Source: a virus (Duplodnaviria; Caudoviricetes). From it: 62,646 nt of DNA. Shown here piece after piece: positions 49,037 to 51,695 of this stretch. The stretch's first letter is position 1. Each line of letters opens with the position of its first letter. The stretch is from the IMG/VR virus record IMGVR_UViG_3300035703_000094, positions 1 through 62,646 of that record. One strand, written 5' to 3'. The notes beneath the pieces were generated by a model. The model ran no database searches. It had not been told where the DNA came from and worked only from the letters and a program-made list of their open reading frames with translations. The translations under genes and the position numbers were made by a program.

Positions 49037-49267
49037 TACCTCTGTCAGGTATCAGCAGCTTGACACCCTCCTGTAGCCCGATGGTTTATTCTGAACTATC
49101 GGGTTTTTCTTGTTATTCAGGCCCAAACTACGACTACTGCGGCCCGATTCCTTCAACGGCAGCACTTATCGGTCCCTCAGCCCGTCTGGACGACAGGACA
49201 GCCCGACTGAGTCCCGAAGTGAACGACGGTGAACGTAGAGACGAGGGAGGGCGGGGGATAACAGGTG

Positions 49268-49720
49268 CTAATCAGCCCAGCCCTGATGCTTAGCTATGGC
49301 CTTAACTAGCCGGAGAAACTCAAGATGTGAGGTTTTTTGCCTGAGCTGCCTGCATTTACCACAGACAGTGACTAGAGTGGTAGGGCCGGGACCTTCTCCC
49401 AGGCCATTATTGAAGAGTAGACCGCAATATTCGCATGGCTCCTTAATCTTAGTACGTAATTCTTCCTCGGATGCCAGGTCTGTGAGACGATGCCTAATTG
49501 GTAACCTATTCCCGCCGAATTGAAGTGCTCGCAGATAGGGACATTTCTTCTTATCTCCGCAAGTTATATGACCTTTCTGAGTCAGCAACTTCGACTTCTT
49601 GAGCACAATCTTACCGCAATCGCACTGACATTGCCAATCTCTTACATGCCCACGCTTGACTAATCCAATAACGATAAGGTGCCCGAATCTTTGTCCTGTA
49701 ATATCAACAAGTTTAGCCAT
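49268..49720 (-). CDS. Degenerate HNH-type homing-endonuclease-like zinc-binding protein
   Basis: DITGQRFGHLIVI...WQCQCDCG; PCEYCG...CGKC; usual catalytic residues not evident. Confidence 0.65.
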   Translation of the reverse strand: MAKLVDITGQRFGHLIVIGLVKRGHVRDWQCQCDCGKIVLKKSKLLTQKGHITCGDKKKCPYLRALQFGGNRLPIRHRLTDLASEEELRTKIKEPCEYCGLLFNNGLGEGPGPTTLVTVCGKCRQLRQKTSHLEFLRLVKAIAKHQGWAD

Positions 49721-49879
49721 AACATCAAGTTCCCGAGTAAAAACACAGAGTTCTAGGGGGCAGTCTACAGTAAAACCCGCCGAGTGTAAAGGGGGAACTT
49801 CCGATTGACGGTCGCGCCAAAACCCACTTACCGTGCTTGGCAAGTGGGCCGGATGATTGGGGTTTTTTGTTTGGGTGAC

Positions 49880-50020
49880 TCACGCGGCTTGCACCCGAGC
49901 CTTCAGGGTTAGGGGTCTTACTTCGAAAGACTCCCAATCGTATTGGTCAAGAGTTGCTTCGACTGCATTAGTGTAGATGATAACAAGGCTTCCATCAGTA
50001 AGAGTAATTCTGAGTTCCAT
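49880..50020 (-). CDS. Small hypothetical protein
   Basis: CAGGAG before ATG 50020; downstream of a sigma28-like promoter. Confidence 0.55.
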   Translation of the reverse strand: MELRITLTDGSLVIIYTNAVEATLDQYDWESFEVRPLTLKARVQAA

Positions 50021-50061
50021 CTTGATTCTCCTGTAAGAGCCGGTTGCTTGGCTCACCCTAC

Positions 50062-50088
50062 TCATCGACACTTTGCCGATTTGCTTTA
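50062..50088 (-). promoter_or_regulatory. Sigma28 (FliA)-like promoter, leftward
   Basis: TAAA-N15-GTCGATGA versus the consensus TAAA-N15-GCCGATAA. Confidence 0.55.
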
Positions 50089-50164
50089 GTTCCCAATCAT
50101 TTCAACAAGTTAGCCAATACTACACATTGTATCTATAGAGATGTGTAACGCACAATTTGGCGCG

Positions 50165-50224
50165 GCGGGGGATGGGCGTCGGGGGAACGTCGTGCAGCGG
50201 GGGATGGGCGCAGCGGGGGATGGG
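50165..50224 (+). repeat. G-rich direct repeats (three copies of GCGGGGGATGGG), G-quadruplex-capable
   Basis: Copies at 50165, 50197 and 50213, plus a G5 run at 50181. Confidence 0.85.
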
Positions 50225-50307
50225 TGGCTGCAGCTGCGGAGAGGTGACGCGAGTGCTACTCGTGAGGCTTCAACTTGCCGAGATTGCTGGCTTTTCCAAC
50301 TTTCCGT

Positions 50308-50335
50308 TAAAGTATTTTTTGCCGTTTGCCGTAAA
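50308..50335 (+). promoter_or_regulatory. Sigma28 (FliA)-like promoter, rightward, heading the early arm
   Basis: TAAA-N16-GCCGTAAA (spacer one base longer than consensus). Confidence 0.45.
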
Positions 50336-50344
50336 GAAGGTGTC

Positions 50345-50655
50345 GGGTCGCTCAGCTTGACTCCTTGTGTCGGACGATACACGGTCAACGGGCTTCCCTA
50401 CCGCTCCCCGTGCTGCGGCACTACGGAGACGCGCCTTGCGGAGCATGTAGTCCTCGGACAGTGCCTACCGTGTACGAATCGGCTAACTACCGACGGCGAG
50501 CGAAAGCAGTTAGGAATCACTGCGTGTATCCGAGGATACACAGACGTGTGAACGAAGCTGTGATTAGCAACAAGAACTCTGGAGACCGCCTCGCGTGTTC
50601 GTGTCGAGATGATACCAAACACAAGAGAGACCGCCCAGAGGTGCAGGATGCACGA
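50345..50655 (+). ncRNA. Putative structured leader/non-coding RNA
   Basis: No credible ORF; serial hairpins including gtgtatcc-ga-ggatacac, gc-GAAA-gc, ctctgg...ccagag and gtgca-gga-tgcac. Confidence 0.5.
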
Positions 50656-50656
50656 A

Positions 50657-50711
50657 CCCTATACACGTCTGCTTCGACGTGCTGACGAGTCCCAGAAAGG
50701 ACGAAATAGGG
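50657..50711 (+). ncRNA. Type III hammerhead ribozyme
   Basis: Stem III ccctaT/Ataggg, AUA cleavage triplet, stem I cacgtc/gacgtg, core CTGACGA, stem II gtcc/ggac, GAAA. Confidence 0.92.
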
Positions 50712-50719
50712 AGTATCTT

Positions 50720-50833
50720 ATGTTTTTCTTCACACCCTTGGAATTATTTATAATTCTCGTTGTTGGCTTTGCCTTTCTCACGCTGTCCGACATTGTAATC
50801 AATGTCGTGAAGGATGTCCTCTCAAAAGAGTGA
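50720..50833 (+). CDS. Small single-pass membrane peptide (37 aa)
   Basis: AGGGAG Shine-Dalgarno overlapping hammerhead stem III; hydrophobic helix. Confidence 0.65.
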   Translation: MFFFTPLELFIILVVGFAFLTLSDIVINVVKDVLSKE

Positions 50834-50841
50834 GGTGACCT

Positions 50842-51525
50842 ATGCCTACGTTGCTTGCACAAAACAGCAAGATTGCCAAGAGCGCAACTGCTGAATACGT
50901 TGTATTCAACTTCGGGATACCTGCATGGAAGTCCAAGACTGGCATGATTACATGCCCTGCGGCTGGCATCTGCGGAAAACAAGGCGGATGCTACGCATTG
51001 CAGGGGCCGTATCGGTTCAGCAATGTGGCCAGCGTGTACGAGTGGAGATTGACGCAAGCCGAGACAGAAACATTCCCGATTCTGATGCAATCAGAATTAG
51101 ACGAGGCAAAACGCAAGGCTACCAAACGTGGCCGCAAGGTTGTCATCCGCATACACGATAGCGGTGACTTCTATTCGGTTCCTTACTTGCGGAAATGGTT
51201 GGCAATTATTGTAGCCAACGAAGATGTTTACTTCTATGCCTACACGAAACAAGTTCGCTTGTTCAGTAAGTTACTGGACAAGTTACCTAGTAACTTCCGT
51301 GTCATCTTCTCCGAGGGTGGCATCTTCGATGACGAGATTGACACAGCTACTCAATTCCACAGTCGAGTCTTCCCTTCTAGGGAAGCATTGCTTGCCGCTG
51401 GCTATGCTGACGCAAGCGAGAACGATTTGGTGGCAGGCATGGGCGACAATATCCGCATCGGCCTTATCTATCACGGTGCTGACAGCAAGCAATGGACAAC
51501 TGACGAACAGGAGAAAGTGTCATGA
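50842..51525 (+). CDS. GP88-family (radical-SAM-like) phage protein
   Basis: TCPAAGIC.....CYA, IRIHDSGDF, YAYTK, PSNF.VIFS. Confidence 0.8.
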   Translation: MPTLLAQNSKIAKSATAEYVVFNFGIPAWKSKTGMITCPAAGICGKQGGCYALQGPYRFSNVASVYEWRLTQAETETFPILMQSELDEAKRKATKRGRKVVIRIHDSGDFYSVPYLRKWLAIIVANEDVYFYAYTKQVRLFSKLLDKLPSNFRVIFSEGGIFDDEIDTATQFHSRVFPSREALLAAGYADASENDLVAGMGDNIRIGLIYHGADSKQWTTDEQEKVS

Positions 51526-51695
51526 CAATAGCACGTTACAGAGAATTGCTGGGCCATCCATACTATAAGTATGAGGTTGAATTGATTGTGCTTTCCAATG
51601 GAAAGCGCATCAAGATTGCTGCAATAAATTGCAGAGACGATGACGAGTTGGCTCAAGCCACAGAGTGGGTTGAGTTTGTACTGAAGGGAGAATGA
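51522..51695 (+). CDS. Small hypothetical protein (57 aa, below the ORF-track cutoff)
   Basis: MTIARYRELL...VLKGE; AGGAG Shine-Dalgarno; ATGA overlaps. Confidence 0.65.
   Translation: MTIARYRELLGHPYYKYEVELIVLSNGKRIKIAAINCRDDDELAQATEWVEFVLKGE

What the first reader, a model, noticed from the sequence alone, without database searches (positions are those of the whole stretch)
50657..50722. Type III hammerhead ribozyme whose stem III overlaps the Shine-Dalgarno of the first early gene
Seen: a complete hammerhead with stem III ccctaT (50657-62) paired to Ataggg (50706-11), AUA triplet, stem I cacgtc/gacgtg, core CUGACGA, stem II gucc/ggac and GAAA. The 3' strand of stem III runs into AGGGAG, the Shine-Dalgarno of the ATG at 50720. 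Established: hammerheads cut after the NUH triplet (here after 50663), leaving a 2',3'-cyclic phosphate and a 5'-OH. Inference: one cleavage could both release the upstream leader as a discrete RNA and unmask the ribosome-binding site of the early operon. Phage hammerheads are known; this coupling to a ribosome-binding site and a long structured leader is the interesting part.
Basis: partly seen in the sequence, partly recalled or inferred. Interest (0 to 1): 0.82.

Follow-up and report, generated by a model that had tools for sequence, protein, structure and literature searches.

The report
Phage hammerhead ribozyme at ribosome site
A genuine-looking self-cutting hammerhead RNA sits just before the first gene of a phage operon, and one strand of its closing helix forms part of that gene's ribosome-binding site; this kind of ribozyme is known and the layout recurs in other phages, so it is a well-supported example and not a new kind of thing.

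Summary
Bases 50657-50711 (+) form a complete type III hammerhead with a canonical core, three helices and an AUA cleavage triplet. The AGGGAG Shine-Dalgarno (50708-50713) shares AGGG with the 3' strand of stem III, 6 nt before the ATG at 50720.

It is more than chance. A descriptor scan found this one hit in the window and none in 200 random genomes. A relative (L002) keeps all 16 pairs through 5 compensatory changes with an invariant core. Natural variants repeat the stem I swap. Rfam RF00008 gives only 24 bits against a cut-off of 48.5.

The window is a complete 62.6-kb phage genome. The ribozyme lies about 320 nt downstream of a conserved sigma-28-like promoter, behind a structured leader, and before a conserved 37-aa hydrophobic ORF.

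The same layout occurs in two other phage lineages (L008/L009, L095/L096) and in 12 more viral hammerheads. It is a minority form: most phage hammerheads end about 23-25 nt before a start codon.

Self-cleavage and Shine-Dalgarno unmasking are untested, and folding predicts only a modest gain in accessibility. Haloviruses HF1/HF2 are a published precedent (PMC3088659). This scan has noted the layout before on other DNA.

The parts
50308..50335 (+). Sigma-28 (FliA)-like promoter element, TAAAG-N15-GCCGTAAA. The implied transcription start is near 50343 (inferred).
   Evidence: Regex hit. Both boxes are conserved in L002 while the spacer varies. The generic sigma-70 scan found no plus-strand promoter here.
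50343..50663 (+). Non-coding structured leader of about 320 nt. It would be the 5' cleavage product, ending in a 2',3'-cyclic phosphate at A50663.
   Evidence: Frame-breaking indels against L002, including a 29-nt gap. RNAalifold predicts 78 pairs, 7 with changes on both sides. Natural variants flip predicted pairs: 50411/50420, 50412/50419, 50450/50459, 50577/50640, 50592/50625. No Rfam family matches.
50657..50662 (+). Hammerhead stem III, 5' strand (CCCUAU; U50662 = U16.1).
50663..50663 (+). H17 (A). The predicted scissile bond is 3' of this base.
   Evidence: position rule of the hammerhead family (established knowledge).
50664..50681 (+). Stem I hairpin (CACGUC / loop UGCUUC / GACGUG). 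It becomes the 5'-OH terminus of the mRNA after cleavage.
   Evidence: Four compensatory pairs against L002. The same swap appears in a run X3 contig.
50682..50688 (+). Catalytic core C3-A9 (CUGACGA).
   Evidence: Invariant in L002 and L004.
50689..50702 (+). Stem II hairpin (GUCC / loop CAGAAA / GGAC).
   Evidence: The loop varies among natural variants while the stem is kept.
50703..50711 (+). Core G12-A14 (GAA), then the stem III 3' strand (AUAGGG; A50706 = A15.1).
50708..50713 (+). Shine-Dalgarno AGGGAG. 50708-50711 lie inside stem III.
   Evidence: L002 has AAGGGG in the same place.
50720..50833 (+). First ORF of the rightward operon: a 37-aa hydrophobic peptide.
   Evidence: 52% identity, 76% similarity to the L002 peptide. 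No PHROG match.
50842..51525 (+). Second gene, a GP88-family protein (PF17338). It served as the anchor for finding relatives.
   Evidence: E 1.8e-35.

Best explanation
This is a genuine and probably active type III hammerhead ribozyme. It is built into the 5' untranslated region of the rightward (replication, presumed early) operon of a complete 62.6-kb tailed phage.

Transcripts that start at the conserved sigma-28-like promoter (about 50343) carry a structured leader of about 320 nt. The ribozyme cuts after A50663. This separates the leader, which ends in a 2',3'-cyclic phosphate, from the mRNA.

The mRNA then begins at C50664 with a 5'-OH and the stem I hairpin at its very end. The 6-bp stem III becomes an intermolecular helix that can fall apart, leaving AUAGGGAG single-stranded 6 nt before the AUG of a 37-aa membrane peptide.

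The most likely role is constitutive 5'-UTR processing. It gives the operon mRNA a short, defined and leader-free 5' end, as hammerheads in front of phage genes generally seem to do. Brief masking and release of the Shine-Dalgarno is a consequence of a compact layout, not a regulated switch.

Shown here: the motif, its conservation and covariation, its position, and the recurrence of the layout. Inferred: cleavage in vivo, the transcription start, product release, and any effect on translation or stability.
For: - Motif complete and canonical. One descriptor hit in the window and 0 hits in 200 random genomes.
- Against L002: the core is invariant, 16 of 16 pairs are kept, and 5 pairs are compensatory.
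- An independent natural haplotype in run X3 carries the same stem I swap on both strands, plus loop 2 changes. Other contigs differ only by an insertion in loop 2.
- With L008 added, 46 of 46 cells pair and 8 pairs changed on both sides. That alignment was fitted to the model, so it leans towards the structure.
- Context: the promoter boxes are conserved. There is no terminator-like site between promoter and ribozyme. The leader is non-coding. The small ORF is conserved.
- The same order of parts (sigma-28 consensus promoters, a long leader, a type III hammerhead whose stem III 3' strand is AGGAG, then a 24-aa hydrophobic ORF) is seen in L008/L009, a phage only 49% identical in GP88.
- A third lineage, L095/L096, has promoter-like sites, a short leader, a hammerhead with UAGGAG, and a 182-aa ORF.
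- Generality: of 78 distinct viral hammerheads sampled without regard to stem III, 44 have an ATG-ORF start 11-35 nt after the ribozyme, against 26 of 240 random positions. This fits a general role in setting mRNA 5' ends.
- Published: prophage hammerheads flank genes and cleave in vitro and in E. coli. In HF1/HF2 the major early transcript's 5' end maps within 3 nt of the ribozyme site (PMC3088659, passages seen).
- Synthetic ribozyme insulators (RiboJ) normalise 5' UTRs in the same way (PMC7536230, passage seen).
Against: - No cleavage assay has been done, and no RNA run holds this DNA, so activity is an inference.
- Rfam RF00008 scores below its gathering cut-off (24 against 48.5).
- No loop-loop pseudoknot or conserved tertiary contact could be recognised, so the cleavage rate at physiological Mg2+ is unknown.
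- The ribozyme is not conserved across the wider phage group. Model R2 found it in 3 of 50 GP88-bearing viral records, and in 0 of the 15 that are at least 90% complete. The closest complete relative has none in its equivalent intergenic region. It is therefore dispensable for this operon type.
- The transcription start is inferred from a motif only.
- The host is unknown, so the fate of a 5'-OH mRNA (stabilised or degraded) cannot be predicted.
Confidence: 0.6

Rival explanations
1. Cleavage-gated translation. Stem III holds the Shine-Dalgarno closed until the ribozyme cuts, so the rate or extent of self-cleavage sets how much of the first gene, and by coupling the operon, is translated.
For: - Four of the six Shine-Dalgarno bases lie in stem III.
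- The overlap is kept in L002 although stem III itself changed.
- It recurs in L008/L009 and L095/L096 and in 12 further distinct viral type III hammerheads.
- Predicted accessibility of positions -13..-5 rises after cleavage in 11 of 16 such ribozymes (mean 0.33 to 0.50, Wilcoxon p 0.008).
- Synthetic aptazymes that free a masked Shine-Dalgarno by hammerhead cleavage work in bacteria (PMC5367253, passages seen).
Against: - The predicted gain is small for the window itself (0.18 to 0.28 for AGGGAG), and 5 of 16 cases do not rise.
- Most phage hammerheads leave the ribosome site outside the ribozyme: only 8 of 78 end within 10 nt of a start codon. Masking is therefore not needed for whatever they do.
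- No sensor domain or conserved alternative fold was found. The one 9-nt anti-ribozyme complement in the leader is absent from L002.
- A fast natural hammerhead would keep the site masked only briefly.
- In L096 stem III can extend to 11 bp, which would not dissociate spontaneously.
Confidence: 0.15
2. 3'-end maturation of a phage non-coding RNA. The main product is the structured leader of about 320 nt, released as a discrete RNA with a cyclic-phosphate end and a function of its own, such as a decoy, a regulator or an anti-defence RNA. The position at the ribosome site is secondary.
For: - The leader is 82% identical to L002 overall, with long near-identical blocks.
- It is non-coding.
- Its predicted hairpins covary in L002 (7 pairs) and in natural variants (5 pair flips read).
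- The L008/L009 phage also places 500-700 nt of non-coding RNA between its promoters and its hammerhead.
Against: - No Rfam family matches the leader.
- nhmmer finds no similarity between the window's leader and any of the other loci, including L008/L009.
- The L096 leader is only about 100 nt.
- Most phage hammerheads lie between genes with no leader at all.
- Fold energy of leader plus ribozyme is not unusual (z -0.94).
Confidence: 0.15
3. Negative control by cleavage (glmS-like). The 5'-OH end made by the ribozyme marks the operon mRNA for rapid decay and limits early gene expression.
For: glmS is the one bacterial self-cleaving ribozyme whose function is well understood, and it works this way (review PMC6765202, section 13, read).
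Against: - There is no ligand-binding domain.
- The stem I hairpin sits at the exact 5' end of the product, a feature that usually protects mRNAs (established knowledge, not tested here).
- It would be odd to place a constitutive destabiliser in front of a replication operon.
- The host and its RNases are unknown.
Confidence: 0.05
4. An inactive or chance look-alike with no function.
For: - The Rfam score is below the gathering cut-off.
- The fold energy is not significant.
- The element is absent from most relatives.
Against: - 0 hits in 200 random genomes.
- Five compensatory pairs with an invariant core.
- A second natural haplotype has compensated stems.
- The same layout occurs in other lineages.
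Confidence: 0.04

Closest known systems
HHphage hammerhead of haloarchaeal viruses HF1 and HF2 (Perreault et al. 2011, PMC3088659; passages seen)
   Same: A hammerhead just upstream of the first ORF of an early polycistronic transcript of a tailed virus (13 nt before the start codon). The mapped 5' end of the transcript lies within 3 nt of the cleavage site, so the ribozyme defines the mRNA 5' end.
   Different: That one is an archaeal virus with a core-variant ribozyme, discussed there in relation to salt. The words 'Shine-Dalgarno' and 'ribosome binding' do not occur in the main text of the paper. Here the core is canonical, the virus is presumably bacterial, stem III shares 4 bases with the Shine-Dalgarno, and a structured leader of about 320 nt precedes the ribozyme.
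Clustered type I/II/III hammerheads flanking genes in prophages (Agrobacterium, Azorhizobium, Clostridium scindens; PMC3088659; passages seen)
   Same: Ribozymes placed in front of phage genes and proposed to process long transcripts into gene-length or operon-length mRNAs. My sample of 78 viral hammerheads shows the same habit.
   Different: Those are internal to operons and often tandem. This one is single, sits at the head of the operon behind a long leader, and overlaps the ribosome site.
Synthetic hammerhead devices: aptazymes that free a masked Shine-Dalgarno (reviewed in PMC5367253; passages seen) and RiboJ 5'-UTR insulators (PMC7536230; passage seen)
   Same: The logic is the same: a hammerhead in a bacterial 5' UTR cuts off upstream RNA and leaves a defined 5' end, and, in the aptazyme design, an exposed ribosome site.
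   Different: Those are engineered from the Schistosoma or satellite-RNA ribozymes, with an added aptamer or hairpin. This natural element has no recognisable sensor.
glmS ribozyme
   Same: A self-cleaving RNA in a bacterial 5' UTR whose cleavage changes the fate of the mRNA (PMC6765202, section 13, read).
   Different: It has a different fold, depends on a metabolite, and triggers decay. No Rfam glmS match was found here.

Membership tests
Hammerhead ribozyme, type III (Rfam RF00008, clan CL00010) | Conserved core C3 U4 G5 A6 N7 G8 A9 ... G12 A13 A14, with the A15.1-U16.1 pair and H17 (not G) at the cleavage site | tested here: met
   CUGACGA at 50682-88, GAA at 50703-05, A50706-U50662, H17 = A50663. 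The cmscan alignment places these on the consensus.
Hammerhead ribozyme, type III (Rfam RF00008, clan CL00010) | Three helices around the core, with stems I and II closed by loops and stem III open (type III topology) and a G10.1-C11.1 pair | tested here: met
   Stems of 6, 4 and 6 bp. The minimum-free-energy fold equals this structure, and it passes the descriptor.
Hammerhead ribozyme, type III (Rfam RF00008, clan CL00010) | Helices supported by compensatory changes in relatives while the core stays fixed | tested here: met
   16 of 16 pairs kept and 5 compensatory against L002. The same stem I swap occurs in a run X3 contig. Only two or three independent sequences are available, so the statistics are thin (14 of 500 shuffles reach the observed values).
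Hammerhead ribozyme, type III (Rfam RF00008, clan CL00010) | Score at or above the Rfam gathering threshold | tested here: not met
   24.0 bits against 48.5, and no gathering-level hit in the window. The L090 hammerhead also fails, at 35 bits. This is a curation cut-off of one model, not a structural requirement.
Hammerhead ribozyme, type III (Rfam RF00008, clan CL00010) | [quoted passage not shown] | tested here: inconclusive
   Loops UGCUUC and CAGAAA show no conserved Watson-Crick pseudoknot, and loop 2 varies. By contrast, L008, L226 and L257 carry UGGU in loop 1 opposite ACCA in the short stem II, the pseudoknot type described in PMC3088659.
Hammerhead ribozyme, type III (Rfam RF00008, clan CL00010) | Site-specific self-cleavage giving 2',3'-cyclic phosphate and 5'-OH ends | not testable with these tools
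   No RNA run holds the sequence. A bench assay is needed.
Natural ribozyme-masked ribosome-binding site (working class, not a curated family) | The Shine-Dalgarno of the next ORF forms part of a ribozyme helix, with the start codon at normal spacing | tested here: met
   AGGGAG at 50708-13 with 50708-11 in stem III, and the ATG 6 nt later. This is kept in L002. Further cases are listed.
Natural ribozyme-masked ribosome-binding site (working class, not a curated family) | Cleavage changes translation of the downstream ORF | not testable with these tools
   Only thermodynamic predictions are available, and they show modest gains.

The most novel reading that the evidence does not exclude
One cut does two jobs. 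The hammerhead is the 3'-end maturase of a structured early non-coding RNA of about 320 nt, transcribed from a host FliA (sigma-28)-type promoter. At the same stroke it hands the freed 3' strand of stem III to the ribosome as the Shine-Dalgarno of the early operon. Release of the RNA and the start of early translation would then be stoichiometrically linked. Ribosome capture of the Shine-Dalgarno would also make cleavage irreversible by displacing the leader. The same design in the L008/L009 phage (three consensus sigma-28 promoters, a 500-700 nt leader, a hammerhead, a micro-ORF) would make this a conserved phage start-up module.
Probability: 0.2. Interest if true: 0.7.

Novelty: new member of a known kind. 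Interest (0 to 1): 0.4.

Why it matters
What self-cleaving ribozymes do in bacteria and phages is still described as largely elusive (review PMC6765202, section 13, read).

This locus is a clean, compact test case. It has a single canonical hammerhead, a defined promoter-like start, a structured leader and a ribosome site that shares bases with stem III. It also comes with natural compensatory variants and two further lineages with the same layout.

A simple comparison of active and core-dead ribozymes could separate three ideas: 5'-end processing, translational unmasking and release of a non-coding RNA.

The survey made here adds a general point. Viral hammerheads typically end about 23-25 nt before a start codon, and a minority reach into the ribosome site. 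This supports an mRNA 5'-end-setting role.

The finding does not reveal a new class of element.

Tried and rejected
- **Rfam over the whole window at gathering score:** nothing. Rfam over the leader, 49200-50660, at E up to 1: nothing.
- **DNA search of the phage collection with 49800-51600:** no match.
- **RNA evidence:** no RNA holder was listed for this DNA, so in vivo cleavage could not be examined. The four DNA runs that were laid gave variants only.
- **The look-up of encoding contigs:** Only one close relative (L002 = L005, with L004 identical over the ribozyme) was available.
- **Anti-ribozyme switch:** in the fold of the full leader, 50541-50549 pairs perfectly with 50663-50671, which would hide the cleavage site. 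L002 has a 29-nt indel there, and leader-ribozyme duplex energies do not beat shuffled leaders in any of three phages (fraction of shuffles at least as good 0.29, 0.90 and 0.43). I rejected this as a conserved feature.
- **Leader homology:** nhmmer with 50023-50720 against the loci held at that time (L002-L004, L006-L084) found only L002 and L004.
- **Ribozyme in the wider GP88 phage group:**
  - Model R1 over 83 sources added only L008/L009.
  - Model R2 over the whole records of 50 of the 80 loci found 3 of 50. The other 30 records were not searched whole.
  - The closest complete relative, G002, has no hammerhead or Rfam hit in its intergenic region.
- **Prophage copies:** the pattern search of genome contigs found 0.
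- **Chance matches discarded:** L091/L098, L092, L093, L099 and L101 do not form hammerhead stems. In one search, 66 of 80 pattern matches failed the descriptor or were duplicates.
- **L096:** its minimum-free-energy fold is not the hammerhead fold, so I treat it as a candidate only.
- **Supplementary files of PMC3088659:** They may list hammerheads with ribosome-site overlap.
Full report
**What is there.** Bases 50657-50711 of the plus strand spell a textbook type III hammerhead.
- Stem III is CCCUAU (50657-62) paired with AUAGGG (50706-11). Its inner pair is U16.1 (50662) with A15.1 (50706).
- The unpaired H17 is A50663.
- Stem I is CACGUC/GACGUG with loop UGCUUC.
- The core is CUGACGA.
- Stem II is GUCC/GGAC, with G10.1-C11.1 and loop CAGAAA. 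GAA follows it.
- AGGGAG occupies 50708-50713, so four of its six bases belong to stem III. UAUCUU and the ATG at 50720 follow.

The minimum-free-energy fold of 50650-50725 is exactly this junction, but its energy is not exceptional (z -1.36).

**Is it more than chance?**
- A descriptor that asks for the core, U-H, and stems of at least 4, 3 and 4 pairs finds this one site on both strands of the window. It finds none in 200 first-order Markov random genomes.
- Rfam reports nothing at gathering score. In a local search RF00008 aligns the element correctly but gives only 24.0 bits against a gathering score of 48.5, E 0.012.
- The decisive support is comparative. A viral contig with a 95% identical neighbouring protein (L002) carries the same element. 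Its core and stem II are invariant, stem I is changed from CACGUC/GACGUG to CGUACC/GGUACG, and one C-G pair of stem III is changed to U-A.
- In numbers, 16 of 16 pairs are kept and 5 are compensatory. Slid partners pair at 31-53%. With only two sequences, 14 of 500 column shuffles reach the observed values.
- L004 and L005, from the metagenome collection, are identical to L002 over the ribozyme.
- Contigs of four public DNA runs add natural haplotypes. One in run X3 has the stem I swap on both strands (50665-68 and 50677-80) together with loop 2 changes. Others differ only by a base inserted in loop 2.
- So stems are kept by compensation, loops drift and the core is fixed, which is the signature of a functional ribozyme.

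**Context.**
- The window is a complete viral record of 62,646 bases with terminal repeats.
- It encodes a P22-like portal, a DNA polymerase, a helicase, a ribonucleotide reductase and tail fibre proteins.
- Genes from 50720 onward, continuing across the record's ends to about 9230, are on the plus strand. They include a GP88-family protein (PF17338) and the replication genes.
- Genes from about 50022 leftward are on the minus strand. The ribozyme therefore lies in a divergent control region of about 700 nt.
- At 50308-50335 there is a sigma-28-like element, TAAAG-N15-GCCGTAAA. Both boxes are conserved in L002 while the spacer differs.
- No terminator-like site lies between this element and the ribozyme.
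- The intervening stretch of about 320 nt is non-coding. It has frame-breaking indels against L002, and the frame that runs through the ribozyme does not join the small ORF in L002.
- The leader is structured. RNAalifold predicts 78 pairs, 7 with changes on both sides. Five predicted pairs are flipped compensatorily in natural variants: 50411/50420, 50412/50419, 50450/50459, 50577/50640 and 50592/50625.
- The ORF at 50720 encodes a 37-aa hydrophobic peptide. It is conserved in L002 (17 of 33 identical, 25 of 33 similar), although the DNA there is much more diverged than the leader.

**Does the layout recur?** Among 80 viral loci with GP88 relatives (the best 80 of 326), a covariance model built from the window and L002 found one further ribozyme, in L008/L009. 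This phage is only 49% identical in GP88.
- Its hammerhead differs throughout: stem I is GGUAGAU.../...GUCUACC, stem II has 2 bp, and UGGU in loop 1 faces ACCA.
- Stem III again ends in UAGGAG. After 8 nt comes an ATG opening a 24-aa hydrophobic ORF.
- Upstream lie three tandem matches to the sigma-28 consensus TAAAGTTT-N11-GCCGATAA and 500-700 nt of non-coding RNA. The third match was read by eye.
- Rfam gives this ribozyme 35 bits.

A pattern search for hammerhead cores followed by GAAAUAGGAG returned 12 stretches. Two distinct type III ribozymes were among them (L008/L009 again, and L095/L096), along with two type I ribozymes and five chance matches.
- L095/L096 sits in a divergent region next to a terminase-like operon.
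- It lies about 100 nt after TTGACA-N17-TAAGAT, and its UAGGAG is 8 nt before the ATG of a 182-aa ORF.
- Its predicted fold is ambiguous, and stem III can extend to 11 bp.

A further pattern required GGAG three bases into stem III and an ATG 4-9 nt later. It gave 80 matches in the 80 loci read, out of 96 stretches. Fourteen were distinct, descriptor-passing type III hammerheads, 12 of them new, in front of ORFs of 59-154 aa. The overlap is therefore a recurrent natural design.

**How typical is it?** I sampled viral hammerheads without regard to stem III, using cores with the common GUCC/GGAC stem II. The sample was the first 80 loci of at least 119 stretches.
- The 88 core matches gave 78 distinct classified ribozymes with enough downstream sequence: 57 type I and 21 type III. 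Five were unclassified and five were duplicates or too near a contig end.
- In 44 of 78, an ATG-initiated ORF of at least 30 aa starts 11-35 nt after the ribozyme. The same holds for 26 of 240 random positions.
- The median distance is 23 nt for type I and 25 nt for type III.
- Only 8 of 78 have 10 nt or less, 2 of them among the 21 type III ribozymes.

Phage hammerheads thus generally sit just in front of start codons and leave the ribosome site in the linker. The window belongs to a compact minority in which the linker is so short that the ribosome site is part of stem III.

The ribozyme is also sporadic. Model R2 found it in 3 of 50 whole GP88-bearing records, and in none of the 15 that are at least 90% complete (30 of the 80 records were not searched whole). 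The closest complete relative has none.

**How it most likely works.** By the established chemistry of the family, the cut leaves the leader with a 2',3'-cyclic phosphate at A50663. The mRNA is left with a 5'-OH at C50664, and the stem I hairpin sits flush at its end. Stem III becomes a 6-bp intermolecular helix.
- Partition-function folding predicts that the ribosome site is mostly paired before cleavage and somewhat freer afterwards.
  - For AGGGAG the unpaired probability goes from 0.18 to 0.28 in the window, from 0.02-0.07 to 0.36 in L002, and from 0.00-0.16 to 0.28 in L008.
  - For positions -13..-5 the window goes from 0.14 to 0.43.
  - Across 16 overlap-type ribozymes the mean rises from 0.33 to 0.50, with 11 of 16 rising (Wilcoxon p 0.008).
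- The direction fits unmasking, but the size is modest. These 16 were chosen by a pattern that demanded the overlap.
- Most phage hammerheads do without masking, and no sensor or conserved alternative fold is present.
- I therefore favour constitutive 5'-UTR processing: leader removal and a defined, hairpin-capped 5'-OH end. On this reading, transient masking of the ribosome site is a consequence of compaction.
- The rivals are a true cleavage-gated translation switch, maturation of the leader as a functional RNA, and glmS-like destabilisation. None is excluded.

**What is known.**
- Perreault et al. 2011 (PMC3088659; passages seen) reported thousands of hammerheads, many flanking prophage genes. 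They showed cleavage of polycistronic constructs in vitro and in E. coli.
- They also described a hammerhead in haloviruses HF1/HF2, 13 nt upstream of the first ORF of the early polycistronic transcript. The mapped 5' end of that transcript lies within 3 nt of the cleavage site.
- The words 'Shine-Dalgarno' and 'ribosome binding' do not occur in the main text of that paper. I could not open its supplements.
- A 2019 review still calls bacterial ribozyme function largely elusive and mentions processing of polycistronic transcripts as a suggestion (PMC6765202, section 13, read).
- Synthetic biology uses the same logic: aptazymes that liberate a masked Shine-Dalgarno (PMC5367253; passages seen) and RiboJ insulators that normalise 5' UTRs (PMC7536230; passage seen).
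- Full-text searches for hammerhead, phage and Shine-Dalgarno terms listed no paper describing a natural hammerhead whose stem contains the ribosome site. I judged those lists by titles and abstract starts only.
- This scan has already noted the layout many times on other DNA: 89 notes in at least 78 genomes. Those are unchecked AI notes and I do not count them as evidence.

**Verdict.** It is a new member of a known kind. The ribosome-site overlap is real and recurrent, but it is a minority variant of a general habit of phage hammerheads, and its regulatory meaning is untested. The specific extras here are the sigma-28-like promoter and the covarying leader of about 320 nt, shared in outline with the L008/L009 phage. 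They make this a convenient experimental model and leave room for a more interesting dual-function reading.

Noticed in passing
window 50308-50335 (+); also window 24880 (-), L002 2486, L090 2259, 2351 and about 2446: Sigma-28 (FliA)-type promoter motifs head the hammerhead-bearing operons. The window has TAAAG-N15-GCCGTAAA, conserved in L002. The L008/L009 phage has three tandem near-perfect TAAAGTTT-N11-GCCGATAA motifs. I estimate about 0.05 chance matches to my regex per 62-kb genome (my own arithmetic, not a tool result). Phages that rely on the host's flagellar sigma factor for their first operon would be unusual.
   Followed up: partly
window about 50343-50656 (+): The structured non-coding leader of about 320 nt has covarying hairpins in L002 (7 pairs) and in natural variants (5 pair flips). 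It matches no Rfam family and no leader in other loci. It may be a new phage non-coding RNA whose 3' end is made by the hammerhead.
   Followed up: partly
window 50141-50215 (+); L002 about 2310-2400: Three direct repeats of a G-rich unit (GCGGGGGATGGG-like) lie between the divergent operons. L002 has three repeats at the same place with a different unit (GCGCAGGCTCGG-like). The repeat number is conserved but the sequences have changed in concert, as expected for operator or iteron sites that co-evolve with their binding protein.
   Followed up: no
window 50541-50549 against 50663-50671: There is a perfect 9-nt complement between the leader and the cleavage site plus the stem I 5' strand. It replaces the hammerhead fold in the minimum-free-energy structure of the full leader. 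It is not conserved in L002 and not above shuffled controls.
   Followed up: yes
L090 2898-2925 (same as L008 about 880-905): A partial copy of the middle of the hammerhead (GGUAGCCUAUC-CUGAUGAG-UCACC) lies about 90 nt upstream of the real L008/L009 hammerhead. It could be a remnant of a duplication or an alternative pairing partner.
   Followed up: no
L008 968-1021; L226, L257, L259: A subclass of type III hammerheads has a 2-bp stem II (GU-ACC-AC region). UGGU in loop 1 is complementary to ACCA in stem II, which fits the pseudoknot-stabilised hammerheads of PMC3088659. All of these have the ribosome site at the end of stem III.
   Followed up: partly
L039 2060-2182: A type I hammerhead with a long insertion in stem III lies between two genes, about 820 nt upstream of a GP88 homologue in another phage. 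It has no overlap with a ribosome site. Rfam did not report it at E up to 0.5.
   Followed up: partly
L110, L115, L125, L152, L162, L164, L178, L179: Several viral contigs carry three to six hammerheads in series, each in front of a small gene. These resemble the clustered arrangements published for prophages.
   Followed up: no
window 49268-49843 (-): An ORF with an HNH endonuclease match (phrog_374, E 4.7e-11) lies near the start of the leftward arm. A small minus-strand ORF with a good ribosome site starts at 50022.
   Followed up: no
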